This document shows positions 1-54,400 of a DNA stretch of 64,000 bases, one piece after another (position 1 is the stretch's first letter; each line of letters begins with the position of its first letter). The notes beneath the pieces were generated by a model. That model had not been told where the DNA came from. It ran no database searches and saw only the letters and a program-made list of their open reading frames with translations. The translations under genes were made by a program, and so were the position numbers. The DNA is from a virus. Lineage: Duplodnaviria > Heunggongvirae > Uroviricota > Caudoviricetes. The stretch lies in the IMG/VR virus record IMGVR_UViG_3300046804_001959; one strand, 5' to 3'.

Positions 1-683
1 AAGTAGCCTGTACCGCCGTGTAGGAACGAGTCAGGATCCACCCATTCAGGATGACTCATCGCCACGTGACGTGCTGCGTTCTTGCAAGGATACATGGCAT
101 TACGGAAGCCGAATTCTTCGACAAAGATTTCGTTCAACTTCTTAGCGAACTCCATCATTGTATACGGCCGGTTGATTTTTGTAAATAGCCTATGCGCATG
201 CTTCTCGGCGAATAGTTTAGGAACTTCGCAGAGCCATTCTTTTGTATTCGTATCTTTCGGATAGTAGATCTGAAATAGATCGTTACGAGCATGTCGTTCT
301 GTCAAGAAACGACGACGCATCGATTCAGGACCTCCGTCTCTCCATGCTCTGAAGGTCTGCCAATGTTCGTTGGTAAACGAGAAGATAAGGCATGCTTCGA
401 GTACAGTCTGAAAGTCATCGACTTCTGCGATCTCATCGACGAACGGACACTCATGCCAGTGTAGGCGATGACTGAACTGCTGATAGTTGTCACGAAGAAG
501 CGAGTCTCGACGAAGATCGTACTCACGACAAAACTCGAAGAACTTCTCAGTTCGTTCTTCCTGTGTCCAGTCCTTCATCCATGACCGCTTCGGCTTTCCC
601 TTCTCGTCGTACTCGACTTCAGCGATGTTCGGGTACTGGATATCAAACTCATGCTCTCCAAGGAGCTCAGTTAACAAGTTCAT
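1..683 (-). CDS. Partial CDS (runs off window start; not in ORF track): paralog of the adjacent HhH-fold DNA base-modifying transferase-like protein
   Basis: Manual translation from ATG at 683 is open to base 1 (MNLLTELLGEHEFDIQYPNIAEV...). Segment HVAMSHPEWVDPDSFLHGGTG aligns with DIADWFPQYVNLESPFYYGTN of the 667-1815 protein. Start overlaps the end of that gene. Confidence 0.7.
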   Translation of the reverse strand, partial: MNLLTELLGEHEFDIQYPNIAEVEYDEKGKPKRSWMKDWTQEERTEKFFEFCREYDLRRDSLLRDNYQQFSHRLHWHECPFVDEIAEVDDFQTVLEACLIFSFTNEHWQTFRAWRDGGPESMRRRFLTERHARNDLFQIYYPKDTNTKEWLCEVPKLFAEKHAHRLFTKINRPYTMMEFAKKLNEIFVEEFGFRNAMYPCKNAARHVAMSHPEWVDPDSFLHGGTGY

Positions 684-1815
684 TTACTTTTGCCTTATAG
701 TCTTGTACGCTCATGCCGACTTGCTTGAGAATGGTATCGTCAGATGGATGGTTCGTCATGCCGTTGAAGGTTCTTACCAAGCCGAGGTCGAGCATTGCTT
801 TTTGCCGTCCGAAGGGATGATCTTTGATGCGACAGCTTGACCAGACTGAATCAAAACAGAGATGGTTGTAGTCTGCTCCAGGTTTGACATAGTTCTCGAC
901 CCATCGGATAAAGTCGCAGCATACATCTTCTGCGTTGTAAGGGTAGGCTCCTGTATCGGCATAGATCTTCTCCATAATCTGATCGAGGAACTTCTCTTTC
1001 TGAACACGCTGAGTGTTGATGCCGAGATAAGAGATGCATTCCACTGCATTGGTGCCGTAGTAGAACGGGCTTTCAAGGTTGACGTACTGTGGGAACCAGT
1101 CAGCGATGTCTGCTACGAACGCAGCGTACTGGAATCGATAGGCTCGTAGACCGTTACGAGCATTCCAATCGAACATCCATTCGCCGATCTCACGAAGATC
1201 CTTTTTCTGGTTGTTGCCTTCGAGCCATTCTGCCAGTTCTCTACAAAGACGGGGCGCGTACTCACAGAGATAGTAATCACCACCGCGTTTGTAACCAGGT
1301 GCTGGTTTCGGGAACGAAGGGAACTGATAGCCTACTGAAGTGTAGAACGGATACGGATAGACGTTGACGAATCGAGCCATATCCTCGATCGTGTTGAACT
1401 TGTAGAGGTGAGGCAACAGAGTGTTGTTGTAACCTGAAGGCTTGAACGCATAGTTGATACCAGAACCAGTCACACGGTGCAGAAGGAAAACGTAGAGCCA
1501 TTCAGGAAGACCGAAGTCTTTCTGCTTGCCAGTCCAGTCGTTGGCGATCGTCTTACGTTGGTAGGTAGCGAGACCTTTCTCCATCTTGTCCCAGTATGGG
1601 TGTTCAGGAGTCCAACCGTAGAACACATCATTGACGATCTGCGAGAAGCCCGCATACTTACGTTCGACCACGTCATAGAGCTCTACGTTCTCCATGAGGT
1701 CGTCGTTCATGTTGGATTCGAGGTAAGGTACGGATCCAAGGTTACACTTGGCTTGCTGGTCCTTGGCCAGATGGTAGTAGCGAATGTACTCGTCGTAGTA
1801 CTCAGTCAGTTCCAT
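667..1815 (-). CDS. Putative DNA base hypermodification transferase, aGPT-Pplase / amino acid:DNA transferase-like (HhH glycosylase fold)
   Basis: FQYAAFVADIADWFP..YGTNAVECI and EDVCCDFIRW resemble the aGPT-Pplase motifs (F.AY....DL..GPGA and E..LCEFDKY). Located next to the gp42-like gene. Confidence 0.6.
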   Translation of the reverse strand: MELTEYYDEYIRYYHLAKDQQAKCNLGSVPYLESNMNDDLMENVELYDVVERKYAGFSQIVNDVFYGWTPEHPYWDKMEKGLATYQRKTIANDWTGKQKDFGLPEWLYVFLLHRVTGSGINYAFKPSGYNNTLLPHLYKFNTIEDMARFVNVYPYPFYTSVGYQFPSFPKPAPGYKRGGDYYLCEYAPRLCRELAEWLEGNNQKKDLREIGEWMFDWNARNGLRAYRFQYAAFVADIADWFPQYVNLESPFYYGTNAVECISYLGINTQRVQKEKFLDQIMEKIYADTGAYPYNAEDVCCDFIRWVENYVKPGADYNHLCFDSVWSSCRIKDHPFGRQKAMLDLGLVRTFNGMTNHPSDDTILKQVGMSVQDYKAKVNELVN

Positions 1816-2218
1816 GAATATATGCTTTCAAACGTTCGATCAATGCCAACTCGTAACCTTTGTCGTTAAGGTTTCGATTACGCGGTGAAGGATGATCGAT
1901 TCTCAGGTGATCTATCTTATACTTATTACAGATCCTTGAGACGATTCCACCGAGAGCGATGACTTTCTTTCGATTTGAAGTTTTCTCGAGAAGTAGATCT
2001 ACATCCACGTCTGATGGCTTATGGCCGTTCTCGATATGAGGGATTACGTTATGGAAATCCCATTCCCATAACGATGCCGCATCACACCACTTTTGTAGGC
2101 GATTGAACGTGCCGTTCTTGAAAGGTTTAGTTCGGGAAGACGGCGAGAGTCCGAGGATTATGACGTCCTCGGACCCTACATGATCTTCGATGAAATCTGG
2201 TACAGACTTCAGCATCAC
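1802..2218 (-). CDS. Small uracil-DNA glycosylase superfamily protein
   Basis: IILGLSPS, VIALGG and HPSPRN motifs typical of the UDG fold. Confidence 0.6.
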   Translation of the reverse strand: MMLKSVPDFIEDHVGSEDVIILGLSPSSRTKPFKNGTFNRLQKWCDAASLWEWDFHNVIPHIENGHKPSDVDVDLLLEKTSNRKKVIALGGIVSRICNKYKIDHLRIDHPSPRNRNLNDKGYELALIERLKAYIHGTD

Positions 2219-2862
2219 TTCACCATATCAAAGTGCCGTTCATAGACATGAAGACTGCCGACATGCCAGATAATCTTTGTCTTCTTAATACCGAGAGCAG
2301 AACCAAGAAGCTTGACTACATGATCTTGCCATGCATAGTCGTTGCGATAGCCGAAGACAACATCATTACTACGCATCTGAACCACAGCCACCAAAGTATC
2401 TTCGCGGATCATGTACTGGACAGTGTTGGTGCACATGAAGTCAGACATACCGTTGAAGTTGTAGTCGAGCCACATCGTAGGACGAGTGTAGATCATGACT
2501 GCACGACGGCTGTTCGGATTATTAGATAGTTCTTTGTATACGTTGTAGTACTGGTTGAAGTTATCTTCATGCCAGATGGCCCAACCGTAGTTGGAGTTGA
2601 TGTAGCCGTTCTCGTCAGCTACCTGCTTCCAGATTTCAGGGACAGGAGCAGGGATGTCATAGACGCTGAGCGACTTCGACTTGTACCATGCGAGTTCACG
2701 ATCGACATAGTCTTGGTTGACCTTGCCGAAGATGGTAGGTTCATCTGCCTCGAAGGTAGCACCGATCATCTCGATGGTCTTGACGCCAGTCTTGTCAGTC
2801 ACGAAACGTTCGTACTTCAGTTCATCGATGAAGTACTGACGAATGTGTTCAACCTTCAACAT
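2215..2862 (-). CDS. gp42: dCMP hydroxymethylase-like (thymidylate synthase fold, T4 gp42 homolog)
   Basis: Near-continuous similarity to T4 gp42 from recall: DKTGVKTIE, RELAWYKSKSL, INSNYGWAIW, DFMCTNTVQY (catalytic Cys), MRSNDVVFGYRNDYAW (cytosine-specifying Asp), GSLHVYERHF. Confidence 0.92.
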   Translation of the reverse strand: MLKVEHIRQYFIDELKYERFVTDKTGVKTIEMIGATFEADEPTIFGKVNQDYVDRELAWYKSKSLSVYDIPAPVPEIWKQVADENGYINSNYGWAIWHEDNFNQYYNVYKELSNNPNSRRAVMIYTRPTMWLDYNFNGMSDFMCTNTVQYMIREDTLVAVVQMRSNDVVFGYRNDYAWQDHVVKLLGSALGIKKTKIIWHVGSLHVYERHFDMVK

Positions 2863-3241
2863 TCAGATTGCCTCCGATCTTGCTACCGTCGATCTTTGCG
2901 AGAGGACGATTGAGGAAGTCACGCTTTGGATCTTGACCGTCCATCTTACCACGACAGTAAGAGACTACGAACGAAGCGTAGTTGATCAGATCCATTGCCG
3001 AGTCTTCGATCGACTCGAAGTTAGGATTGTACGAAGGATCCTTTTCCATCGCTTCGATGACAGACTGCATACGCAGAGTCTTGGCATAGATGAGGTCGAG
3101 GATGGTGGCTACACCACGAGGATAGTAGTCAGCTTGACGAATGCGAGATGCTTCGTTCTGATAGTCTTTCGACTTCTTGAGCTGGATCTCAGCACATTCT
3201 TGGAGGACTCGAATCGATTCACGTTCTTTAGACATATTCAC
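2849..3241 (-). CDS. DUF1599 / nucleotide-modification-associated domain protein (all-helical NTP pyrophosphatase-like fold)
   Basis: KKSKDY...K..R...ESIEDSAMDLINYASF pattern. Confidence 0.7.
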   Translation of the reverse strand: MNMSKERESIRVLQECAEIQLKKSKDYQNEASRIRQADYYPRGVATILDLIYAKTLRMQSVIEAMEKDPSYNPNFESIEDSAMDLINYASFVVSYCRGKMDGQDPKRDFLNRPLAKIDGSKIGGNLNVEG

Positions 3242-3741
3242 ACCTTCTTAAATGGAAAACGATACGTTGGTCGACCCTTATGATCATAACCAACGATCTT
3301 TGCAGTTTTGATTACTTGTTGAGCGGGCACAGCTCCAAGTACAATATACGATACTTCATCATTTATGTACAATCTTTTGTGACGATTGCGATCGGCCCAT
3401 TCCCACACTATGATATGGTCGATGGTTTCATCTTTACAACGATCATAGATGAACGAACTGATATGTACACCAGCTTGAGCATACTGCTTATAGTCGCAAT
3501 TGCCAAGTTCTTCATCGATAGTATCGAAGCAGTGATGCGTATACTGATCGTTGCCTTCGAAGAGAGTCTGCAAAGGATCAATCAACGATTGATGCTGTTC
3601 CGGAAACTCGGAGTCCCAACGACGAATAGCATCATCTTCTTTAACACCTTCTTCGCGCATCACACGCTCAACGTGTGCATCACGTTTTTCAATAAATTCT
3701 TCTGACGCGATGCCAGTGCAAAGTCCATATCTCATAATCAA
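3238..3741 (-). CDS. Hypothetical protein
   Basis: 167 aa ORF with 4-nt overlaps to both neighbours. Confidence 0.7.
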   Translation of the reverse strand: MIMRYGLCTGIASEEFIEKRDAHVERVMREEGVKEDDAIRRWDSEFPEQHQSLIDPLQTLFEGNDQYTHHCFDTIDEELGNCDYKQYAQAGVHISSFIYDRCKDETIDHIIVWEWADRNRHKRLYINDEVSYIVLGAVPAQQVIKTAKIVGYDHKGRPTYRFPFKKV

Positions 3742-4010
3742 ACTTCCTTATATGCTCGTTGCCAAGCAGAATCAGACACTTTTAGACCGGCTCCAGCCAG
3801 ATCGAGATTCCACATCGTCTGACCTATAGATGCAGAAGATCTTTCGTTTTTGATATCTCGAATGAGCTTATTGATTCGGGCTCGCTTGTTAATAGCAGAC
3901 GCCCGATTATCAGACAAAGGAGGAACTGCGATTGACTCGAGCACTTCCAATGCTGCTGCACGTGCTTCTTCGAGAGGCATACGAGTGAAATTATGAAGGA
4001 TGTCAGACAT
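3738..4010 (-). CDS. Hypothetical protein
   Basis: 90 aa ORF coupled to neighbours. Confidence 0.65.
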   Translation of the reverse strand: MSDILHNFTRMPLEEARAAALEVLESIAVPPLSDNRASAINKRARINKLIRDIKNERSSASIGQTMWNLDLAGAGLKVSDSAWQRAYKEV

Positions 4011-4309
4011 TAGATGCGCTTTCCATCGAGAATGAAGTAACCACGGTCGAGTTCGTCCTTCGCGAAGACGAGGATGTTGTCGTTCATAAGGATCTGCAGC
4101 GGAGCTTCACCCTTCGGGTTGTAGGCTCCACCGAGGCGACTGAAGTACTCTTCGACCGAGTAGTGTTTGATCAGCATCGACTGGAACTTGGCCTTCGTGA
4201 CCGGGCCACGATGCTTGAAGCGAGCTACGAACTTACGTTCACCGGCTTCAGTGGTGTAGTGAAGGTAGCCACCGTGGTAGTCGAAGTTGGTCTTGGCGAA
4301 AGCAGTCAT
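4010..4309 (-). CDS. Hypothetical phage protein
   Basis: 99 aa, good RBS (AGAGG), directly downstream of a sigma70-like promoter. Confidence 0.7.
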   Translation of the reverse strand: MTAFAKTNFDYHGGYLHYTTEAGERKFVARFKHRGPVTKAKFQSMLIKHYSVEEYFSRLGGAYNPKGEAPLQILMNDNILVFAKDELDRGYFILDGKRI

Positions 4310-4337
4310 GTTTGTTTCCTCTTTGATTATAGGTTTA

Positions 4338-4366
4338 CCTTATCAAAGATTGCAAATATTGTACAT
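4338..4366 (-). promoter_or_regulatory. Putative host-sigma (early) promoter: TGTACA-N17-TAAGGT with TG extension
   Basis: Minus strand AAAAAAAGCATGTACAATATTTGCAATCTTTGATAAGGT in the intergenic gap. Shares the 13-mer GCATGTACAATAT with the site near 12128-12140. Confidence 0.5.
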
Positions 4367-4386
4367 GCTTTTTTTCGATAAAAACG

Positions 4387-4791
4387 CTATTCTACGATTT
4401 TATACAGCAGACCATGGTTGTGCTCATGACTCGGAGCAGTCCAACCTTCTGGCTTGATCAGGTCAGGTAGACCGAGCGGGTTCGGTCGAGATGCCTTGAT
4501 ACCGACTTCCTTGGCCATGTTTGCCTTATGAACCTCGTTCCATGCACGACCAGCGTTTACCTCAAAGGCATCCAACGTACCGATAGCCACAACGCAGAGG
4601 TCGATCAGAGCATCGACGATTTCCTCAGGATTATTCATATTATCCTTCAGCTCGTTCAGTTCTTCTTCGAGGAAGGCTACACGAAACTCAAGGAACTTAC
4701 GAAGCTTCTCAGCATCGAACTTATTGACCTTCTCGTTGACACCATACTTGGTGTGCATGTCTGCGATGTCTTGAAACCAAATAGCACTCAT
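4387..4791 (-). CDS. MazG-like / PRA-PH family nucleoside triphosphate pyrophosphohydrolase
   Basis: EEELNELKD...EIVDALIDLCVVAIG...EVHKANMAK...KPEGW pattern. Confidence 0.8.
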   Translation of the reverse strand: MSAIWFQDIADMHTKYGVNEKVNKFDAEKLRKFLEFRVAFLEEELNELKDNMNNPEEIVDALIDLCVVAIGTLDAFEVNAGRAWNEVHKANMAKEVGIKASRPNPLGLPDLIKPEGWTAPSHEHNHGLLYKIVE

Positions 4792-4801
4792 AATAATCTC
4801 C

Positions 4802-5362
4802 TTAGGCCTTGAGCCACTCTAACATTTCCTGCACTTCTGATGATAACTCAGATTTAGGTTTAAGTACACCGTTTTTTCGATTGATCTTGGCAGCAAGCTT
4901 CTTTGCCTGTTCCAAGTGATATCTATTCGCGCGCTTCGTATGCTGGATACCGTTGAGATGATCGAGCTCGTGCTGAAACACTCGAGCTGTGATGCCGTCA
5001 AACTTCTTTGTCTCGGTGTTCCCGTCTGGGTGAGTGAAGCGAACCTTGATAAACTTCGGTCGCTTGACCTTGACGAAGAGGTTAGGATAGCTTAAGCATC
5101 CTTCTTCGAGAGTTACCATCTCTGACGATACGTCGATGATACGAGGGTTGATAACACCGATCACGTTCTCTGCTCGCATGACGAACATACGAGTACGTAC
5201 ACCGATCTGATTAGCCGAGAGACCCATGCCATCTGCATCGATCATGGTCTCAGCAAGATCCTTGTACAACTCTACTGGATCCATGATAGGATTGGCAAAG
5301 TCAAACGCCGGCATCTCTTCGCGAAGGATTGGATCGAGGTGATTTACGATGTCTTTGATCAT
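4802..5362 (-). CDS. def: Peptide deformylase
   Basis: All three PDF motifs: GMGLSANQIG, EGCLSYP, HELDHLNG. Confidence 0.95.
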   Translation of the reverse strand: MIKDIVNHLDPILREEMPAFDFANPIMDPVELYKDLAETMIDADGMGLSANQIGVRTRMFVMRAENVIGVINPRIIDVSSEMVTLEEGCLSYPNLFVKVKRPKFIKVRFTHPDGNTETKKFDGITARVFQHELDHLNGIQHTKRANRYHLEQAKKLAAKINRKNGVLKPKSELSSEVQEMLEWLKA

Positions 5363-34878: not shown

Positions 34879-36918
34879 TTATTGAATGGTGATGTCGATG
34901 TATCCTCCGGGAGCCACGGTTACCGAGTGTGTTTGACCATCTGGGTATGAGTAGTAGCTTGCCTTCTGATTATTTATAACAGGTGCAGTGGTTCCTCCGG
35001 AATTTGATCCCGGGAATGTAATGCCAAGGGCAGACGATGGATTTCCTGGAACTGCAGGAGTAGGAGTATTATAGTTCTGTGGACCATTGGTTGCAGGGTT
35101 ATAGTTCTGCGGTCCTCCTGTAGCAGGGTTGTAGTTTTGAGGCCCATTGGTTGCAGGGTTATAGTTTTGAGGCCCATTGGTTGCAGGGTTATAGTTCTGA
35201 GGACCGTTCGTAGGCAAGTTGTAGTTGGCTGGTCCGTTAGTAGGAACATTGTAGTTAGCTGGTCCATTCGCTACATTGTAGTTGGCCGGTCCATTGGCTA
35301 CGTTGTAGTTTTGTGGGCCGTTCGCTACGTTGTAGTTCTGAGGACCATTGGTTGCAGGGTTGTAGTTCTGAGGACCATTGGTTGCAGGATTGTAGTTTTG
35401 CGGCCCGTTTGTTGCAGGATTGTAGTTAGCAGGTCCATTGGCTACGTTATAGTTTTGAGGTCCATTTGTAGCTGGGTTGTAGTTCTGAGGACCATTGGTT
35501 GCAGCATTGTAGTTAGTTGGACCACCTGTAGGAGCATTGTAGTTAGCTGGACCAGGGGCCACATTGTAATTCTGAGGACCATTGGTTGCAGCATTGTAGT
35601 TAGCTGGACCGTTCGTCGGTGCATTGTAGTTAGCTGGACCATTGGCCACATTGTAGTTTTGTGGGCCGGCAGTCGGAGCATTGTAGTTAGCTGGACCGTT
35701 CGTCGGAGCATTGTAATTAGCTGGACCGTTTGTAGCAGCATTAAAGTTTGCAGGACCGTTTGTAGCTGCATTATAGTTAGCTGGACCGTTCGTCGGTGAA
35801 TTATAGTTAGCTGGACCGTTAGTAGCAGCATTGTAGTTTGCGGGTCCAGGCTGCGGCGCGTTGAGATTTCCAGGTTGGTTCGATAAGCCGTATTTTACGA
35901 AGTAAATATACTGCGGGTTACCAGGAACGATGTTGTATCCAGCTACATTTCCTGGAATCTTGTTATAGCCTGATACGCTACCTCCGACGATATTGTATCC
36001 GGATATGTTACCAGGAACGATGTTGTATCCACTTACGTTACCAGGAATGATATTGTAACCGGCTACAGGACCGGGAGTGATGTTATAACCGGCTACAGGA
36101 CCGGGAATCCTGTTGTAAGTTCCAGTTCCTGGATAGATGATGTTATACGTAGAGATGTTACCAGGAACGATGTTGTATCCGGATATGTTACCGGCAATGA
36201 CATTGTAAGTTCCAGTTCCGGGATAGATGATGTTGTAGGTAGCTATAGGTCCTGGATTAATATTGTATATACCGGTAGCGTTTCCTGGAATTTTGTTGTA
36301 TATACCGGTAGCGTTTCCTGGAACGATATTGTATGTGCCGGTTCCAGGATAGATGATGTTGTACGTAGCGATATTACCAGGAATGATGTTATATGTACCG
36401 GTAGCATTTCCTGGAACGATGTTGTAGATTCCCGTGGCATTGCCAGGAACGATATTGTATGTGCCGGTTCCAGGATAGATGATGTTGTAAGTGCCGGTTC
36501 CTGGATAGATGATGTTGTATCCTGCCACCGGATAGATGATGTTATACGTATTTACAGGACCAGGAATGATATTGTAGTTGGCTATAGGGCCAGGAACGAT
36601 GTTGTAGATTCCCGTGGCATTGCCTGGAATGATGTTGTAAGTTCCTGTAGCATTGCCCGGAACAATGTTGTATGTCCCAGTAGCGTTACCTGGAATTACG
36701 TTGTATGTACCGGTTGCGTTTCCAGGAATGATATTGTAGCTACCAGTTCCTGGTCCAGGAATCAGAGCAGTGCCAGTTCCTCCTCGTCCAGATACAAGAA
36801 CGCTGTTACGACCATAAGGAATCGAGATATTACCAGGAGAATTGAACTTCGTAGTCGCTACGCCGGAAGCACGCCACGTTTTCTCAAGTGTAAACTTATC
36901 ACTACCACCAATACCCAT
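34879..36918 (-). CDS. Fibre-associated protein with two mirror-image YN-repeat arms
   Basis: Start probably at 36918 (TAATG overlap with the upstream fibre stop). 27 YNIxPG units, a 25-aa linker, 27 YNxxxNGP units, flanked by a split Gly-rich beta domain. Confidence 0.8.
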   Translation of the reverse strand: MGIGGSDKFTLEKTWRASGVATTKFNSPGNISIPYGRNSVLVSGRGGTGTALIPGPGTGSYNIIPGNATGTYNVIPGNATGTYNIVPGNATGTYNIIPGNATGIYNIVPGPIANYNIIPGPVNTYNIIYPVAGYNIIYPGTGTYNIIYPGTGTYNIVPGNATGIYNIVPGNATGTYNIIPGNIATYNIIYPGTGTYNIVPGNATGIYNKIPGNATGIYNINPGPIATYNIIYPGTGTYNVIAGNISGYNIVPGNISTYNIIYPGTGTYNRIPGPVAGYNITPGPVAGYNIIPGNVSGYNIVPGNISGYNIVGGSVSGYNKIPGNVAGYNIVPGNPQYIYFVKYGLSNQPGNLNAPQPGPANYNAATNGPANYNSPTNGPANYNAATNGPANFNAATNGPANYNAPTNGPANYNAPTAGPQNYNVANGPANYNAPTNGPANYNAATNGPQNYNVAPGPANYNAPTGGPTNYNAATNGPQNYNPATNGPQNYNVANGPANYNPATNGPQNYNPATNGPQNYNPATNGPQNYNVANGPQNYNVANGPANYNVANGPANYNVPTNGPANYNLPTNGPQNYNPATNGPQNYNPATNGPQNYNPATGGPQNYNPATNGPQNYNTPTPAVPGNPSSALGITFPGSNSGGTTAPVINNQKASYYSYPDGQTHSVTVAPGGYIDITIQ
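34971..34978 (-). promoter_or_regulatory. Candidate late promoter TATAAATA within the 3' end of the repeat gene, about 115 nt upstream of the P4H-like gene
   Basis: Exact consensus, but inside a CDS so chance occurrence is possible. Confidence 0.45.
35056..35835 (-). repeat. Coding tandem repeat arm 2: 27 units of 27/30 nt (YN[AP][AP]TNGP[AQ]N and YNVANGP[AQ]N)
   Basis: Counted from translation. Confidence 0.9.
35911..36738 (-). repeat. Coding tandem repeat arm 1: 27 units of 27-33 nt (YNIxPGNATGT, YNIIYPGTGT, YNIxPGxxxG)
   Basis: Counted from translation. Confidence 0.9.
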
Positions 36919-39900
36919 TACGCGGCGCCCTTCACCGTGAGTGATCCGATCCAACTTGTTCCACCGTCATAAGTCATGAGTGACCAGATGTCGATAGCGT
37001 TGGCTGTTGTCGTTGCAGGAGGAGCTGAACCTCCTGGCCATTTGATTCCTGTCGGCCAAGTGATCGTACGACCACCTGTGGCATCTTGCTTGGCAACGAT
37101 AGTTCCTGCCCACATTCTTGTGCTCGGTGGAACATTCGATGGCGAGATGGTAATGCTTCCTGTAAGAGTCAGCTCGAAGAAGTTGGCCGCAGTACAATCC
37201 ATCGTCCATGTACCAGTAGTAGCGGTGTTAGCTACTTCTGCTTCCGTGTAACCAGTTAGAACCGGGTTGGTGATGTTGTTGTTTGCCATGATCAGGTTGG
37301 CAGACAGCGTAGTAGTACCGGATACAGCAAAGTTGCTGTTCCATGTCAGAGGACCTGCACCAGCACGTCCGAGCTTGATAGCGTTGTTTTCGTTACCGAA
37401 TACGATGTAACCGTTGTTGGCGTTTTGCTGACCCATGACACGGACAGTATCTGCTTGGTTTACGTCACCGAACCAAGCGTCATCACCGATCTTGACGTTC
37501 GTTCCACCACCGTTGTTGCTTGTCAAGATCTGATCGACTTGGAGTGCGGTGTTGACGTGAATACCAGTGCTGTTAACAGTCAGCGTAGAACCAGTAGTAA
37601 CACCGATGGTTCCAGTAGAAGTGATCGTTCCGCCAGATAGACCGTTTGCTGTAGCTACAGATGTAACACCGGCATCGTCTACTCCCCAGTAGACCGATGT
37701 ACCGTTCGAGTGCAGAACATGACCGGATGTACCAAGCGAGTTGTTAGCGTAGATGCCAACACTTGCCATGTCGATGTCGGTGTTGAAACGGAACGCGCCG
37801 CCTTGTACACCCGCATTCGAGTTGGCATAGATGTTGAAGGCAGGACGAGCACCAGCCGTAGTATTGGCCATGTACAATACGAGGTTGTTATCGCTTTGAA
37901 GCTCGAAGTATGCACCTGTAGCGGCGCTGTTCGATAGGAAGTGTAGTCTCTTGCCGTTGCCAAGCGTTGCGTGTGTTGCGTTGGCTACGAAGTTCGAACC
38001 TACACTCAGTACTGCCGAGTTGACCGAAGATGTCGCGTTGACAAATCCAGTAATCGTAGTGTTACCAGCTGCAAGAGTAGTGATACCTGTTACTGCTTGA
38101 GCAGCGCTTGTCGACTGGATAGTGGTTGTGCCAAGATACAGAGCTGGAAGTCGAGCGGCTGCAAGTGTTCCAGTGCTGATATTCGTAGCGTTGGTGTAGT
38201 AAGCAGCTGCTTGTCCACCTAGATTTGTAGAGTTGTTAGCAGTCAGCGCGCTGTTAGCGTTGATTGCACCTTCGGATTTACCGAATGCATACGTAGCATT
38301 GTTCGCAGTGCCCGTAAACGCAGTGGTGTTGATCGTTCCATAAACAGAGGTGTTTCCGATATACAGAGTGTTTGCTTGGAATGCAGCGATACGGAAAGTT
38401 GCGTTTGCGGTGTCGATGTAAGCAGATGCATCTGGTTCTGGAGAATAGTTGTCAAAGACTTTCCAAACACCGTCTGTGGCATCACGGAAGAAACCTGCGT
38501 GATGGTAAGTTCCGTCGTTGTAATTACCAGCAAAACCAAGATCAGGGTTTGATACAGTATTGTTCGCGTTCAGATAGATCATGTTATCCTGAACGGAGAG
38601 AGTAGCAGTATTGACCGTAGTCGTCGTACCTTGGACGGTGATGTTACCTGTTACAGTGATGTTACCGAAGGTGACTGTATCAGTAGTACGAACGTCTTGG
38701 TTCATGCGATACGGTAGACGTGCTTCAGCGAGAGTACCGTTGTTTGCATTCGAAGCGTTCGCTGCAAAGATAGTAGCGTTCGTATATGCAGCTGCAGCGT
38801 TTGCTACCATTGCTGTATTCGCTGTGCCGATCTTTGTGTCTACATATGATACTGCATTGGTATAAGCAGTAGCAGCATTACCGGTAATGGCAGAGTTGGC
38901 AGTACCGATCTTGGTGTCTGTATAGGTTACAGCATTACTGTATGCCGCTCCGGCGTTCGCGGTAATATTGGCTTGAATAGATGCAAGACTACTACCACCT
39001 ACGTTTAGAGCATTATTCGCTGTACCTGAAAACGATGTGGCGTTCAGCGTAGAGTTAGCTAATGTTGTACCGATCGTCAGCGCTGTAGAGTTAGCAATAA
39101 GAGACGATGATGTTGAATTAATATTAGCGATCTGAATGACGTTAATAGAGTTACCGCTATTAAGTGTAACGTTAGCAGAAAATGATACGATACCGTTTAC
39201 AGAATATCCACCAGCAGTAACAAACGAGGTGGCATTTGTATAAGCTGCAGCTGCGTTCGCTACGATAGCTGAGTTAGCGGTTCCGATCTTGGTATCTGTA
39301 TAGCTGACAGCGTTAGTGTATGCAGTAGCTGCATTGCCAGTGATGGCGCCGTTAGCAGTCAGAATCTTGCCATCTGTATAGGACACTGCATTAGTGTATG
39401 CAGTAGCTGCGTTTCCAGTAATAGCACCATTGGCGGTCAGAATCTTGCCATCTGTATAGGACACTGCGTTGGTGTATGCAGCTGCAATTGCAGTGTTAGC
39501 AGTTCCGATCTTTGTGTCGGTATAGCTTACTGCATTTGTATAAGCTGCAGCTGCTGCGGTTGCTGCAGTCTGAGCGTTTGTGTTTGCAGTGATAGCTGCG
39601 TCGTAAGCTGTCTTGACAGAAGCTGCAGAACCAGCAGCAGTCGTAGAAGTGTTTGCTACCGAGTCGACAAGAACCACTGCACCCGCAGAAGTTGAGTTAC
39701 CGGCTGGAAGTCGAGCTGAGTTGACGGTTCCGGAAGTCAGGTTTGTAGCGTTAGCTGCGATAGCGATTGCATTGGTGTATGCAGCACCTGCAGCAGTTAA
39801 AGCGGTTTGAGCATTTGTATTAGCAGTAACAGCCGTATCATAAGCAGTTTTTACACTGTTTGCAGTAGCTACGTAAGAAACTGAAGTGTTGTTGACTGCA

Positions 39901-41225
39901 TCTAGCACTGGAATACGAGCAATCGCTACGGTTCCTGAAGAAAGGTTCGATGCATTCGCTGCAAAGGCAGTAGCGTTTGTGTATGCATCAGAAGCCGCAG
40001 TCTGAGCAGATGCAGCTCGCGTATTAGCAGCGATAGCAGCATCGTATGCAGTCTTGACAGAGTTAGCAGTAGCTACATACGAAACTGAAGTATTGTTAAC
40101 AGCATCGACTGTAGGAATACGAGCGATCGCCACTGTACCAGAAGAAAGGTTCGATGCGTTCGAAGAGTATGCTACTGCGTTCGAATATGCATCACCGGCT
40201 TTAGTGTTAGCATACGATATCGCATTCGAGTAAGCAGCCGCAGCAAGAGTTCCAGCAGCAGTGTTTGCAGTGATCGCAGCATCATATGCAGTCTTGACAG
40301 AAGCAGCAGAAGCTGCAGCCGTAGTAGATGTATTTGAGACTGAGTCGACTAGGATAACAGCACCGGCTGCAGTCGAGTTTCCTGATGGAAGACGAGCTGA
40401 GTTGACTGTACCGCTCGTGAGATACGTCGCGTTCGAAGCAAGGTTCTCAGTATATGTACGAAGATCAGATGCGCTATTTCCACCAACTGTTGCAGCGTTC
40501 ACCGAAGTAAGAGAAGCACCGTTACCTGAGAATGCCGTCGAGTTGATAGCAGAGTACACGCTTGAGTTACCAATCGAGATAACAGAAGTGTTTACTGTTA
40601 CGCCTCTAACGTAAATAGATGTGTTAGAGATGTTTAAACCCGTAACTGCAAACATGCCAGTACGAGATACTTGGCCATAATCTGCATATGTTACGTTTGC
40701 TACTACGTACGATTTTGATGTGATCAACTCATCGTGCGAAACAGCAGCATAGTATGTGTTACCAGTTTCTGTAGTCGAATCTGTAAACGAGATTACGGTG
40801 CCAGTAATAGTGCCGACGTCGTTACCTTGTGTAACTGTTACATTGCTTGCTTTAATGCTAACAGTATCGGCTACGTTCAGCGCGATCGATACGTTGACAG
40901 TAGATGGAAGACGGTTAACAGATAGAGTACCGGTTGTGAGGTTACTCGCGTTAGCAGCAAAAGAAATGGCATTTGAGTATGCGTTGGATGCTTTTGCATC
41001 TGCATAGAATGCCGCGTTCGAGTATGCATCTGCAGCTTTACCGTCTGCATAGTTTACACCGTTGGCATATGCGTTGTCTGCAGCTCCGCTGATCGATGTA
41101 GAGTTGATCGTTGTAGCGCCGATTACAAGGCTGCCATTCGAAATGGTTACATTACCTTGAGTTACTGCAACTCCGTTTGCAACGGTTAACCCGTTCTTAA
41201 CGCGAAAATTAACTGGTGTAGTCAT
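36918..41225 (-). CDS. Long tail fibre-like protein (1435 aa)
   Basis: Four copies of a phage tail fibre repeat (..SVKTAYDAA), 22-aa helical repeats AYTNAVSYTDxKIxTAN, C-terminal WPxxxKWPGG..P..T domain. Confidence 0.85.
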   Translation of the reverse strand: MTTPVNFRVKNGLTVANGVAVTQGNVTISNGSLVIGATTINSTSISGAADNAYANGVNYADGKAADAYSNAAFYADAKASNAYSNAISFAANASNLTTGTLSVNRLPSTVNVSIALNVADTVSIKASNVTVTQGNDVGTITGTVISFTDSTTETGNTYYAAVSHDELITSKSYVVANVTYADYGQVSRTGMFAVTGLNISNTSIYVRGVTVNTSVISIGNSSVYSAINSTAFSGNGASLTSVNAATVGGNSASDLRTYTENLASNATYLTSGTVNSARLPSGNSTAAGAVILVDSVSNTSTTAAASAASVKTAYDAAITANTAAGTLAAAAYSNAISYANTKAGDAYSNAVAYSSNASNLSSGTVAIARIPTVDAVNNTSVSYVATANSVKTAYDAAIAANTRAASAQTAASDAYTNATAFAANASNLSSGTVAIARIPVLDAVNNTSVSYVATANSVKTAYDTAVTANTNAQTALTAAGAAYTNAIAIAANATNLTSGTVNSARLPAGNSTSAGAVVLVDSVANTSTTAAGSAASVKTAYDAAITANTNAQTAATAAAAAYTNAVSYTDTKIGTANTAIAAAYTNAVSYTDGKILTANGAITGNAATAYTNAVSYTDGKILTANGAITGNAATAYTNAVSYTDTKIGTANSAIVANAAAAYTNATSFVTAGGYSVNGIVSFSANVTLNSGNSINVIQIANINSTSSSLIANSTALTIGTTLANSTLNATSFSGTANNALNVGGSSLASIQANITANAGAAYSNAVTYTDTKIGTANSAITGNAATAYTNAVSYVDTKIGTANTAMVANAAAAYTNATIFAANASNANNGTLAEARLPYRMNQDVRTTDTVTFGNITVTGNITVQGTTTTVNTATLSVQDNMIYLNANNTVSNPDLGFAGNYNDGTYHHAGFFRDATDGVWKVFDNYSPEPDASAYIDTANATFRIAAFQANTLYIGNTSVYGTINTTAFTGTANNATYAFGKSEGAINANSALTANNSTNLGGQAAAYYTNATNISTGTLAAARLPALYLGTTTIQSTSAAQAVTGITTLAAGNTTITGFVNATSSVNSAVLSVGSNFVANATHATLGNGKRLHFLSNSAATGAYFELQSDNNLVLYMANTTAGARPAFNIYANSNAGVQGGAFRFNTDIDMASVGIYANNSLGTSGHVLHSNGTSVYWGVDDAGVTSVATANGLSGGTITSTGTIGVTTGSTLTVNSTGIHVNTALQVDQILTSNNGGGTNVKIGDDAWFGDVNQADTVRVMGQQNANNGYIVFGNENNAIKLGRAGAGPLTWNSNFAVSGTTTLSANLIMANNNITNPVLTGYTEAEVANTATTGTWTMDCTAANFFELTLTGSITISPSNVPPSTRMWAGTIVAKQDATGGRTITWPTGIKWPGGSAPPATTTANAIDIWSLMTYDGGTSWIGSLTVKGAA

Positions 41226-51400: not shown

Positions 51401-54400
51401 TTAGAAGTAGATGCCGCTCATCGCTCTAGCAATTTCGATCTCAAGTTGTTTGTTTAGATCGATCGTCAGAACGTTGTAAGATCCAGTAGCGGCTGTCGCA
51501 TCAGTATAGGCAGCTGCGCCAGATGTTGTAGCTGGCGGAGTATTGTTAGTGGCAGTCGACGAAGTAGAAGTTGCTGTCGTAGAAGGAGATATGTTCAGAT
51601 AGTCGTAACCAGTTGGGTTGTTGGTGTAGTACGACATCGTGATAACACCTGCGCCGCGCGATGTGCTGTCACCGTTCTGAACCGAGAATCTCTTCTGACC
51701 GGCGATGCTTGCGATAGCGCGGTTGCGAGCTTCAACGTCTGTGCCAGCTTCATCGAGGCCTGCATCGTAGTAGAAGTCGAACACAAGAACTCCGTTGGCA
51801 TCTGATCGAAGACCAGCGGTGTTCGTGGTCGATGTTCTGACTTGTGAACACTTGGAAGTCTTGTCTTCTCCGTCAAACGTAAATGTGTGGTTAGTATTTG
51901 GCTTAAGGCCTGATACAGAGATAGTAAATCTCTGCGAGTCTGCCATATAAGCCTCGGCATATCCACCAGCTCCACCTCCAAATAGATCCCAACCGTAGTT
52001 GAAGCTGAATCCTTCAGAGACGGTAAACGTATCAGGAGAGATCGAGTGAACGATACCTGTATACTCGAACGTATTCGGGTTAGGTACTGTTCTGATCTCG
52101 GTCGACACGCTGTCTGTCGGGTACTTCATCAGGTATCCGAACTTACCGCTGTTGCTTCCACCACCACCAAGGAATCCGCTGTGGTGATCACCCTTGTAGA
52201 TACGAATCTTTACGTATTGACCAGCCGCAGGATCATGTGTCCAAAGCATTTTGAACTGATCTTCCCAGAAGTGACCAGAATCGATACCAGATGGGTATGA
52301 CTTGTAATCTAGTGATCCCTTATGTTCGATAGGCTTACCATCGTTAAGACTGCTGATCTGATAGATTCGAGCAACGTCTGCATCAGTGATAGCTTGAGCT
52401 GTCAGCGAGTTCGTTGTCAATGACCATGGACCGTTCGGTGTGCTGCTCTGATAAACAGAAGCTGACATCACGTTGTCTTGAGAATTGATATAGAACTCTA
52501 CTGGTCCAGGGAAACTACTGAACGTGTAAGTAAACTCTTCGTACACCGAACCGCTATCGCTGTGGCTCGTGCTGCGCTGAGACTGAATGACCGTATCGAT
52601 ACGCTGAGTTACCGTAGTTACAGTCACATCGCCAGTCGTATTCGCGACCGTAGTCACAGTGTTGGCTACTGTGTTTGCTTCTACTACTGGAGCTGGACCG
52701 TTTGTGATGCCTGTCTGTTCTCCGATAGAAACTTCAACATAAGGCAGCGTGAGGATACCTTCGTACTGGCCACCGCCGTCTGGCATGAACTGAAGGTTCA
52801 GTTCTTTTAGGAACGGACCGAGTTGATCTTCTCTGATAGAAGAATAGAACTCAGCATGTCCAACTTCTGAATAATTGTAGTCAGTGAACGGATCAACAAA
52901 GAAACCGAACTTGAAACGATCGACAGCAGCATCAAGACCACTCGGAATAAATCTTGCTTTAGCCAATGCTTCTGCAAGAGTAAACGATACATAGTACTCA
53001 AGATCCTTGATTCTCTTATCAAGACTTCCGATGTCAGCCATCGTGTATCTACGTTGTTGAATACGTGTGCGTTCTGCTGCGCTGATCAAAGGCTTGACAG
53101 TGTAGTTTGCTTTTCTCTTACCTGTGGCGTCGCTCTGCACTTTCGTATCGATGATCGAGATCATGTCTGTAGAAAGAGACTCAGGCAGAGAAGGATATGG
53201 TGGAATGTTGTAGATCTGCAGAGTCAGCGAATTATCTTGATCAGGAGGAACGACCGGTGTCGTGCTTGGTTCACCTGCTCTGATTTCAAACCCACCAGTC
53301 GAGTTGATAACTACACGATCGAGTCTTCCAAGATACGAACTGATGTTTGCTGTCATGGTCGAATCAGGTACTGGGAAGTACGATGTTGCCGAAGCAAAGT
53401 AGTTCGTGTTCGATGGAAGAGTTGGGTTGATGATCGACGCTGCGTTAGCACCTGATGCAACCGCTGAGATGTTAGTGATATAGTTGATGGTATTTGCTGC
53501 TGCAGGTCGCATGTCTGCATAGTCACGGAGATCGTAGTAAGTACCGTTCTTTCCTACGAACTCTGGAATTTCCATGGTGTTAACACCAGTATCACTGACC
53601 AGAGTAGTGAGGTTCGCTGTATCGACGATGTTGTAAGACGAGATAGTCTTGACGCCGGATGCAGACGTGAAGGCATCGAACTTGACAAGAAGAACGTCTG
53701 TAGTTGCCAGAGTATCGTATCTTGGCTTACGTACGAGACGAGAGATGTCAAGGAAATCTTCGTTCTGACGGCTATCGATGTAGAACTGATTCGTAACGTC
53801 TGTTACGCCGTTTGTAGTTTCGGTAAAGTAGATGGCGTTACCAGTAAACTTGTGAGTCGAAGATGAGTTCGAGTAAAGCGTAAGGTTAGCACCGCCGCGC
53901 GTCGAGGCCAGAGAAAAACCGGATGTGTTAGCGTATACGACATAGTATGTCGTGGCATTTGTCAGACCACCGACACGACCTACACCTGCAGTGTTCGAGT
54001 ATACTACTGCGTCACCGTTTGCAAACGGGTTGCTTGCGATGGTGATGAAAGCGTTGGCAGTACCAGAACCCGTGATTCCTGTTGAAACATCGAATGTAAC
54101 GTCGCGTGATGAACCGTCTGCTTTCCATACTCCACGTAGACGGTAAACGTCTGATACACCGAGCGGCCATGGTCCACGAATACCTGCGCTGTTGTTGTTA
54201 GCGATCACGATACGAGCGTAGTTACCACGGTTAGATGTCTTGGCAGCAGAGCTGACATTGTTACGTTGAGCGTTATAAACTACCGAGACTGGCATCGAAG
54301 CAGCTGCGTTCGAAGTAGCATTGGCAACGTTGTTACCAAAGTAGATCGTCATGACCTGACTGTTAGAACTGTCGACGTTCGCCCATTTTGAAGCCTTGTT

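What the first reader, a model, noticed from the sequence alone, without database searches (positions are those of the whole stretch)
1..4791. Cytosine hypermodification cluster with two paralogous HhH-fold transferases instead of T4 glucosyltransferases
Seen: a gp42-like gene with the dCMP-specific Asp (RNDYAW) lies in one compact, mostly overlapping minus-strand block with a UDG-like gene, two paralogous aGPT-Pplase/AADT-like genes (667-1815 and the partial 1-683 ORF missed by the track), a DUF1599-like protein and a MazG-like pyrophosphatase. Known: characterised AADT enzymes decorate phosphorylated 5-hydroxymethyluracil, and T4 hmC is decorated by GT-B glucosyltransferases. Inference: here a cytosine derivative (hmC or 5-hydroxyC) may be decorated in one or two steps by the two HhH-fold paralogs, giving an unusual base. 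The MazG-like enzyme could stand in for the gp56 dCTPase.
Basis: partly seen in the sequence, partly recalled or inferred. Interest (0 to 1): 0.72.

Follow-up and report, generated by a model that had tools for sequence, protein, structure and literature searches.

The report
Hydroxymethylcytosine hypermodification cassette without glucosyltransferases
An uncultured T4-like phage makes T4's hydroxymethylcytosine but, where T4 keeps its sugar-adding enzymes, it carries relatives of the enzymes that attach amino acids to thymine in other phages, so its DNA probably bears a cytosine decoration nobody has described chemically.

Summary
Window 1-4791 is one overlapping minus-strand block. It encodes a MazG-like pyrophosphatase, a DUF1599-like protein, a true ortholog of T4 gp42 (all dCMP and hydroxymethyl specificity residues kept), a UDG-superfamily protein, and two proteins (A, 667-1815; B, 3-683, cut by the window edge).

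A and B match no Pfam or PHROG family. Family profiles show they are remote paralogs. A's model is closest to the PaMx11 amino acid:DNA transferase, and both keep that enzyme's Glu-x-x-x-Cys catalytic motif.

In 77 related contigs, A and usually B are followed by a fold-II PLP enzyme and an SGNH-esterase-fold protein. In other phages the SGNH protein is fused to the A domain.

I found no T-even glucosyltransferase in the window or in larger relatives. No 5-hmU DNA kinase homologue and no canonical ADDT or HMUDK_hel family turned up either.

The best reading is amino-acid-type hypermodification of 5-hmC (not 5-hydroxyC) after replication, without the usual kinase. The chemistry and the final base are unknown.

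I found no paper describing this module. Earlier notes of this scan report the same cassette in at least 19 other genomes.

I rate it a new variant of a known kind, interest about 0.7.

The parts
3..683 (-). Paralog B: N-terminal 227 aa of a ~335-aa aGPT-Pplase/AADT-fold protein. The gene continues past the window start.
   Evidence: ORF. Full-length relatives are 320-340 aa; the best, P0124, is 89% identical. It is a remote homolog of A by hhalign (93.7%). The family keeps E-D-K-x-C near its C-terminus. Its ESM Atlas neighbour clusters carry PF18723 or PF18724 on a minority of members.
667..1815 (-). Paralog A: 382-aa aGPT-Pplase/AADT-fold protein with an invariant Glu296...Cys300 motif.
1802..2218 (-). 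Short (138 aa) UDG-superfamily protein. Motif B is HPSP; motif A is GLSPS, which lacks an acidic catalytic residue.
   Evidence: PF03167 at E 2.5e-3, covering profile positions 9-133 of 141. 8 of 8 orthologs hit PF03167. Alignment. It is present in 33 of 77 related loci.
2215..2862 (-). gp42 ortholog: dCMP hydroxymethylase (5-hm-dCMP synthase).
   Evidence: PDB 1b49 at E 8e-85. 62-63% identical to gp42 of T4-type phages. It has Cys in MCTN, Asp at ThyA positions 143 and 177, and keeps Asp at 169.
2849..3241 (-). DUF1599-like protein (nucleotide modification associated domain 1).
   Evidence: PF07659 at E 8e-4, below cut-off; phrog_1485 at 2e-13. Conserved beside gp42 in 37 loci.
3238..3741 (-). 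167-aa ORF of unknown function. It is variable among relatives.
   Evidence: No family hit. Found in only 13 loci.
3738..4010 (-). 90-aa ORF of unknown function.
   Evidence: No family hit. Found in 18 loci.
4010..4309 (-). 99-aa ORF, phrog_22119 (unknown function). It is the first gene after the only intergenic gap.
   Evidence: E 2e-10; ORF coordinates.
4326..4355 (-). Sigma-70-like promoter match in the 77-nt gap. It may drive the block 4309 to 1 and beyond.
   Evidence: TTGCAA, 18-nt spacer, TATAAT, 10 of 12. The number of matches in the region is not above the shuffles, so this is only suggestive.
4387..4791 (-). MazG-like all-alpha NTP pyrophosphohydrolase. Candidate dCTPase.
   Evidence: PF01503 at 6e-9, above cut-off. 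phrog_671 at 5e-22. The closest cultured homologs are in Ochrobactrum, Pelagibacter and Rhizobium RL38J1-type phages, not T4 gp56.

Best explanation
The block is the window-resident half of a DNA hypermodification cassette of a T4-like phage. The cassette acts on 5-hydroxymethylcytosine.

Before replication:
- The MazG-like enzyme is inferred to hydrolyse dCTP.
- gp42 converts dCMP to 5-hm-dCMP. This is shown by close orthology and by all specificity residues.
- The nucleotide is then phosphorylated and built into DNA, as in T4.

After replication:
- The two glycosylase-fold paralogs A and B are inferred to flip hmC out of the duplex.
- Like amino acid:DNA transferases, they would use the conserved cysteine to attack C6, expel the substituent on the 5-methylene carbon and add an amine or amino-acid nucleophile.

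Partners just beyond the window start (seen in relatives):
- A fold-II PLP enzyme is inferred to tailor the attached group or to supply it.
- An SGNH-esterase-fold protein is fused to the A domain in other phages, so it works with A. The most likely guess is that it replaces the usual DNA kinase by acylating the hydroxymethyl group to make a leaving group.

The roles of the UDG-like, DUF1599-like and DUF3310 proteins, and of the GT-A-like protein, are unassigned. The end product would be a non-glucosylated, probably amino-acid-derived, 5-substituted cytosine that protects the DNA from host nucleases.
For: gp42:
- E 8e-85 to T4 dCMP hydroxymethylase structures, with the RNDYAW Asp aligned.
- Every TS homolog beside the module in related loci keeps RSND plus Asp at the ThyA-177 position. 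So does the distant one in a complete 256-kb genome.
- Published rule: D169N marks 5hoC synthases (bioRxiv 10.1101/2025.06.16.659550).

A:
- AF2 model at pLDDT 94.7.
- BFVD matches to ADDT- or HMUDK_hel-named phage proteins at probability 0.99-1.0.
- One family member each hits PF18724 (1e-3) and PF18723 (0.01).
- ESM Atlas neighbour clusters of A and B overlap and carry PF18723 or PF18724 on a minority of members.

Motif:
- PUGT uses Glu243 and Thr244 (metal) and Cys247 (nucleophile) (PMC11472151).
- A has invariant E296 and C300 and near-invariant D297.
- B has E-D-K-x-C, aligned to A's motif inside the significant hhalign match.
- The ends of the structural alignment (model 311 = chain 258) place C300 on C247.

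Cluster logic:
- Known thymidine clusters hold a paralogous aGPT-Pplase pair plus a PLP enzyme (PMC8989533).
- Here A, B, p292 and p346 are syntenic in most of 77 loci.
- p292 hits phrog_7093 at 3e-35 and weakly hits cysteine synthases.
- p346 is fused in front of the A domain in seven proteins.

Position and absences:
- In T-even phages the gene after 42 is a glucosyltransferase.
- Alpha-GT is absent from four related contigs while the RB14 control rings.
- No T-even GT similarity in the window.
- No PF18723, PF18724 or PaMx11 kinase homolog in relatives, while the PaMx11 controls ring.
Against: - No chemistry or DNA composition data exist for this phage or any relative.
- A and B are outside the Pfam ADDT and HMUDK_hel models.
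- hhalign of their profiles against a PUGT-family alignment or against PaMx11 gp50 is not significant.
- The residue register C300 = C247 is inferred from range ends and motif spacing, not read from a superposition.
- No activating kinase is found, and the acyl-activation role of the SGNH protein is a guess.
- B is missing from some otherwise complete modules.
- The PLP, SGNH and GT-A-like genes were not read in this genome itself. They are known only from relatives and from an unchecked scan note.
Confidence: 0.6

Rival explanations
1. The cassette modifies thymine, not cytosine. 5-hmU would arise in DNA or nucleotides, for example by deamination of hm-dCMP, and A/B would decorate it as classical AADTs do. 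The adjacency to gp42 would then be only a supply link.
For: All characterised AADTs act on 5-phosphomethyl-dU (PMC8989533). The closest solved structure is a thymine-directed enzyme.
Against: No dUMP-type hydroxymethylase is seen: every TS homolog next to the module has Asp at the ThyA-177 position. No 5-hmU DNA kinase homolog is found in the window, the 77 loci or four larger contigs. A and B are a separate family outside Pfam ADDT.
Confidence: 0.1
2. A and B are not group transferases. They could be glycosylase-fold proteins that bind or excise bases (for example to remove unmodified C or damaged bases, or to shield hmC DNA from host type IV nucleases). They could instead be nucleotide-level enzymes like the queuine-salvage DUF2419 hydrolases. 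The PLP and SGNH proteins would then serve another pathway.
Against: The only invariant Cys sits four residues after an invariant Glu in A. The matching, nearly invariant pair in B has the same spacing, as do AADT gp46 and PaMx11 gp50. The gene set (paralog pair plus PLP enzyme) mirrors known hypermodification clusters. The fusion with the SGNH protein points to joint catalysis on one substrate.
Confidence: 0.12
3. hmC is glycosylated after all, by the GT-A-like protein (phrog_1574) that follows the module in relatives. The A/B/PLP/SGNH set would then make or trim the sugar donor or a second substituent.
For: A 305-aa protein with a D-S-D motif and a weak glycosyltransferase hit follows the module in 37 loci. 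An NAD-dependent epimerase lies between gp45 and gp44 in L030.
Against: The GT-A-like gene is less constant than A, p292 and p346, and its match to glycosyltransferases is far below cut-off. DNA-binding glycosylase folds are not expected for sugar-donor synthesis.
Confidence: 0.1

Closest known systems
Thymidine hypermodification clusters of phages M6, ViI, PaMx11, PhiW-14 and SP10 (dUMP hydroxymethylase, 5-HMUDK P-loop kinase, aGPT-Pplase/AADT pair, PLP enzyme)
   Same: A thymidylate-synthase-family hydroxymethylase supplies a 5-hydroxymethylpyrimidine. There is a pair of HhH-fold aGPT-Pplase-like paralogs with a Glu-x-x-x-Cys motif, a PLP enzyme follows, and the genes are tightly linked.
   Different: The hydroxymethylase is cytosine-specific. 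No 5-HMUDK kinase homologue was detected. The paralogs fall outside Pfam ADDT and HMUDK_hel. An SGNH-fold protein, sometimes fused to the A domain, is the constant extra partner. The PLP enzyme resembles threonine dehydratase or cysteine synthase (fold II), whereas the characterised PLP partners are decarboxylases.
T4 / T-even hmC pathway (gp56 dCTPase, gp42, alpha- and beta-glucosyltransferases)
   Same: There is a gp42 ortholog at 62-65% identity with identical specificity residues. The genome backbone is T4-like. The decorating genes sit directly downstream of gene 42, as beta-gt and its T2/T6 counterpart do.
   Different: There is no GT-B glucosyltransferase. A MazG-like pyrophosphatase is present but is not a gp56 homolog.
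5-hydroxycytosine arabinosylation/glycosylation pathway of RB69, DLP3 and RL38J1
   Same: It is also a cytosine hypermodification that starts from a gp42-like TS homolog in T4-like or related myoviruses. The MazG-like protein has homologs in RL38J1-type phages.
   Different: Those synthases carry Asn at the ThyA-169 position, whereas this one keeps Asp. Decoration there is by glycosyltransferases, not HhH-fold proteins.
5-carbamoyloxymethylcytosine (MetaGPA study, eLife 2021)
   Same: It is a precedent for a non-sugar group placed on hmC in uncultured phages.
   Different: It uses a carbamoyltransferase. None of the families of this cassette is mentioned in that paper's main text.

Membership tests
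T4 gp42-type dCMP hydroxymethylase | Thymidylate-synthase fold with close similarity to solved gp42 | tested here: met
   E 8.3e-85 to 1b49, residues 3-214 aligned on 7-225. PF00303 at 1.9e-21.
T4 gp42-type dCMP hydroxymethylase | Catalytic Cys, Asp at the ThyA Asn177 position (dCMP specificity) and an acidic residue at the Leu143 position (water access) | tested here: met
   DFMCTN and RNDYAW are identical in register to T4. The 6l18 D179N mutant row confirms the position.
T4 gp42-type dCMP hydroxymethylase | Asp kept at the ThyA-169 position (Asn there marks 5-hydroxy-dCMP synthases) | tested here: met
   RSND is present in the window protein and in all neighbours of the module. The rule comes from bioRxiv 10.1101/2025.06.16.659550.
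Amino acid:DNA transferase (Pfam ADDT PF18724, aGPT-Pplase clade 2) | Match to the family HMM above its cut-off | tested here: not met
   P0001 and P0002 have no hit even at E 10. Only 1 of 46 family members hits, at 1e-3. No match in related contigs while PaMx11 rings at 3e-29.
Amino acid:DNA transferase (Pfam ADDT PF18724, aGPT-Pplase clade 2) | Two-helix-bundle HhH glycosylase-like fold closest to PUGT | tested here: met
Amino acid:DNA transferase (Pfam ADDT PF18724, aGPT-Pplase clade 2) | Metal-binding Glu and Thr plus nucleophilic Cys (E243, T244, C247 in PUGT) | tested here: inconclusive
   E296-D297-x-x-C300 is invariant or near-invariant in A. E-D-K-x-C is present in B. The spacing and the range ends of the structural alignment agree with PUGT. 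No residue-level superposition could be read, and hhalign does not align the motifs.
Amino acid:DNA transferase (Pfam ADDT PF18724, aGPT-Pplase clade 2) | [quoted passage not shown] | tested here: not met
   No PaMx11 gp49 homolog or PF18723 match in the window, the 77 loci or four larger contigs including a complete genome. The controls ring. Only one kinase query was used, so sensitivity is limited.
Amino acid:DNA transferase (Pfam ADDT PF18724, aGPT-Pplase clade 2) | Transfers an amino acid or amine to the 5-methylene carbon of a pyrimidine in DNA | not testable with these tools
   This needs enzymology or nucleoside mass spectrometry.
HMUDK_hel (Pfam PF18723, aGPT-Pplase clade 1) | Match to the family HMM | tested here: inconclusive
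   There is no hit for the window proteins. One family member hits at E 0.01. ESM Atlas neighbour clusters carry PF18723 on 11-36% of members. BFVD matches PhiW-14 and phiRSL1 HMUDK_hel proteins at probability 0.99.
Uracil-DNA glycosylase superfamily | Match to PF03167 and the conserved motifs A and B | tested here: inconclusive
   18.3 bits against a cut-off of 24.3, but 8 of 8 orthologs hit. Motif B HPSP is invariant. Motif A is G-L-S-P-S, without the acidic or amide catalytic residue. The profile finds no UDG in the PDB.
MazG / all-alpha NTP pyrophosphohydrolase | Match above the cut-off to a family model | tested here: met
   PF01503 at 36.6 bits against a cut-off of 21.3; phrog_671 at 5e-22. 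Substrate (dCTP) not tested.
T-even hmC glucosyltransferases (AGT PF11440, BGT PF09198, beta-glucosyl-HMC alpha-GT) | Presence of a homolog in the phage | tested here: not met
   tblastn of the RB14 enzymes against the 64-kb window gives E above 2. PF11440 is absent from four related contigs while RB14 rings at 6e-239. PF09198 gives no match but had no positive control. The rest of this genome could not be searched.
SGNH/GDSL hydrolase-acyltransferase fold (partner protein p346, outside the window) | Fold plus the block I Ser and block V His | tested here: met

The most novel reading that the evidence does not exclude
These phages activate the hydroxymethyl group of hmC in DNA without any kinase. 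The SGNH-fold protein, working in cis or in trans with the A domain, O-acylates hmC. The cysteine-dependent HhH-fold paralogs then replace the acyl group with an amino acid. The fold-II PLP enzyme remodels that amino acid. The result would be a new class of amino-acid-derived cytosine bases that is widespread in uncultured freshwater and marine T4-like phages.
Probability: 0.3. Interest if true: 0.85.

Novelty: new variant of a known kind. Interest (0 to 1): 0.7.

Why it matters
Every characterised amino-acid or polyamine hypermodification of phage DNA sits on thymine and depends on a DNA kinase. Known decorations of hydroxymethylcytosine are sugars or a carbamoyl group.

A conserved, abundant cassette that couples T4's hmC synthase to AADT-fold enzymes, a PLP enzyme and an esterase-fold partner would extend amino-acid-type chemistry to cytosine. 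It would also point to a second way of activating a hydroxymethylpyrimidine.

The family is large. There were 954 hits at E 0.001 or better, at up to 96% identity, in one protein search, and 77 IMG/VR loci. An unknown base may therefore be common in environmental phage DNA. That would matter for restriction and CRISPR evasion, for sequencing bias in viromes, and as a source of DNA-modifying enzymes.

Tried and rejected
- Nucleotide search and tblastn of A against 50,697 phage records: no match.
The genes beyond the window start were therefore studied only in IMG/VR relatives.
- Pfam, PHROG and NCBIfam scans of A and B: nothing.
- Profile searches of the PDB by sequence with the A and B families: nothing at E 10.
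- hhalign of the A and B profiles against PaMx11 gp46 alone, a 24-sequence PUGT alignment, or PaMx11 gp50: not significant.
- An HMM of the PUGT family against all A-family proteins: nothing.
- I tried to find which A-family member hits PF18724 so as to fix the motif register. The nine members I picked did not hit.
- 5-hydroxycytosine as the starting base: rejected on the Asp169 rule.
- The idea that Aeromonas phage 31 ORF233c carries an A-like C-terminal domain was not supported by HMM searches.
- The N-terminal ~140 residues of the SGNH partner were not resolved by the fold searches.
- Literature searches for this gene combination found no description.

Full report
**What is in the sequence.** Positions 1-4791 hold nine minus-strand ORFs. 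They overlap or abut by 1-17 nt, with a single 77-nt gap at 4310-4386. That gap holds the best sigma-70-like match of the region, although the number of such matches is not above the shuffles.

The rest of the window shows a T4-like phage. It has gp46/gp47, UvsW, and the gp23, gp22, gp21, gp20 and gp19 homologs. Related contigs continue with gp45, gp44, gp62 and RegA. No whole genome is held for the window.

**The hydroxymethylase.** ORF 2215-2862 matches the solved T4 dCMP hydroxymethylase at E 8e-85. The protein is 62-63% identical to gp42 of cultured T4-type phages.

A 2025 preprint reports that the gp42-like enzymes of RB69, DLP3 and RL38J1 make 5-hydroxy-dCMP, and that Asn at the ThyA-169 position marks them. 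The window enzyme and every TS homolog next to the module in related loci read RSND, so Asp is kept. They also keep Asp at the 177 and 143 positions. The starting base is therefore 5-hmC, not 5-hydroxyC.

**The two 'paralogs'.** A (667-1815, 382 aa) and B (3-683, the first 227 of about 335 aa) have no Pfam, PHROG or NCBIfam match, even at E 10. BLASTP shows nothing between them.

Both belong to large, strongly conserved families of unnamed metagenomic proteins. Profiles of the two families align at 93.7% probability (E 1.9e-7, 138 columns). The aligned stretch includes a shared VDP-x-S motif and an N-x-E-D-x-x-C motif. The paralogy is real but old.

**Fold of A.**
- An AlphaFold model of A built on 46 sequences is confident, with pLDDT 94.7.
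- Foldseek against the PDB is weak.
- Among predicted viral structures, the matches after A's own family are proteins named as ADDT or HMUDK_hel domain proteins of PhiW-14 and phiRSL1, at probability 0.99.
- Single members of the A family touch PF18724 (1e-3) and PF18723 (0.01).
- The ESM Atlas neighbours of A and B overlap and carry those families on a minority of members.

Taken together, A and B belong to the aGPT-Pplase superfamily but to neither Pfam family. Searches with both HMMs find nothing in four larger related contigs while the PaMx11 control rings.

**Catalytic motif.** The PUGT structure paper assigns Glu243 and Thr244 to the metal site and Cys247 as the nucleophile that attacks C6.
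- In 46 diverse A-family sequences the only invariant Cys is C300. It is preceded by invariant E296 and near-invariant D297.
- B's family has E-D-K-x-C at the aligned place.
- PaMx11 gp46 reads E-T-I-L-C and gp50 reads E-H-T-L-C near the end of their cores.
- The structural alignment ends at model residue 311 and chain residue 258. Both are 11 residues after the respective Cys.

I could not read a residue-level superposition, and hhalign does not align these motifs. The equivalence is therefore likely but not proven.

**The cassette is larger than the finding.** In 77 IMG/VR loci the order is MazG, DUF1599-like, gp42, UDG-like, A, B, then a 292-aa protein (p292) and a 346-aa protein (p346). 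Often DUF3310 and a 305-aa protein with a D-S-D motif follow.
- p292 and p346 accompany A in 68 and 66 of the 78 sources tallied (the 77 loci plus the window), and B in 63. Many of the gaps are loci that end before the gene.
- An unchecked scan note places a GT-A-like gene, two unknowns and a PLP-like gene in this same genome, ending 315 nt before the window start. That spacing fits the missing part of B.
- p292 is a fold-II PLP enzyme: phrog_7093 'threonine dehydratase' at 3e-35, weak cysteine synthase hits, and an invariant Lys.
- In seven proteins of 639-790 aa from other phages, a p346 homolog is fused in front of an A-family domain (phmmer E 1e-45 and 1e-59 for the two I read). This is the strongest sign that the two act together.

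**What is missing.**
- No T-even glucosyltransferase is found in the window.
- Alpha-GT is absent from four related contigs, one of them a complete 256-kb genome, while RB14 rings.
- The beta-GT search also found nothing but had no positive control.
- In RB14 the gene after 42 is a glucosyltransferase, so the module occupies that slot.
- No homolog of the PaMx11 5-hmU DNA kinase is found anywhere I could search.
- The only strict Walker A motifs in the window lie in gp46 and in two structural proteins.

**Accessory genes.** The UDG-like protein is sub-threshold on its own. However, 8 of 8 orthologs hit PF03167 and all keep HPSP, while motif A lacks a catalytic acid. The MazG-like enzyme is above cut-off. 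Its nearest cultured relatives include Rhizobium RL38J1-type phages that modify cytosine, not T4 gp56. Its role as a dCTPase is inference.

**Mechanism.** Shown by homology: 5-hm-dCMP synthesis. Inferred: everything after replication.

The gene logic copies the thymidine pathways, which use a hydroxymethylase, an aGPT-Pplase pair and a PLP enzyme. Here the base specificity is switched to cytosine and an SGNH-fold protein stands where the kinase would be. My best guess is as follows:
- the SGNH protein acylates the hydroxymethyl group to make a leaving group;
- A and/or B then use the Cys to substitute an amine or amino acid;
- the PLP enzyme tailors that group.

Alternatives are listed as rivals: a thymine target, non-transferase roles for A and B, or glycosylation by the GT-A-like protein.

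**Novelty.** Full-text searches found no paper on this gene combination. Earlier notes of this scan describe the same cassette in at least 19 other genomes with the same reading. These are not independent evidence, but they show the module is widespread.

It is a new variant of a known kind of system. The final base and the activation chemistry are unknown.

Noticed in passing
P0279, P0291, P0297, P0313, P0338, P0349, P0354 (metagenomic proteins): These are natural fusions of the SGNH-fold partner (N-terminal, about 350 aa) with an A-family domain (C-terminal), joined by a Lys/Pro-rich linker. They are gene-fusion evidence that the two proteins work together.
   Followed up: partly
L083:6007-8394 (Aeromonas phage 31, ORF233c) and L097:3433-4128 (gene 42): Cultured T4-like Aeromonas phages (31, 44RR2.8t and relatives) encode a 795-aa protein. 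Its first ~330 aa are homologous to the SGNH partner, and its C-terminal half is not detectably A-like. They also have a gp42 with hmC-type residues and no glucosyltransferase after gene 42. They could serve as a laboratory handle on this protein family.
   Followed up: partly
window 4802-5362 (-): A peptide deformylase gene (PF01327, 6e-39) lies directly upstream of the MazG-like gene. It is conserved at that place in 24 related loci.
   Followed up: no
L030:16568-17356: An NAD-dependent sugar epimerase/dehydratase gene is inserted between the gp45 sliding clamp and gp44 clamp-loader genes of a related contig.
   Followed up: no
L052 / G002 (256-kb complete IMG/VR genome with terminal repeats): This genome carries the A, B, PLP and SGNH genes in a different order, with the SGNH gene upstream of A. 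Its only TS homolog lies about 80 kb away and is 33% identical to gp42, but it still has Asp at the 169 and 177 positions. The module is therefore not confined to the gene-42 neighbourhood.
   Followed up: partly
L033-L040, L059, L062-L064, L075: These are variants of the module that lack paralog B: A is followed directly by the PLP gene. One paralog may therefore be enough in some phages.
   Followed up: no
window 36918-41225, 51401-56830, 59259-63998 (-): There are three very long ORFs (1435 aa, 1809 aa, and more than 1530 aa) in the structural region, presumably fibre or baseplate proteins. I did not examine them.
   Followed up: no
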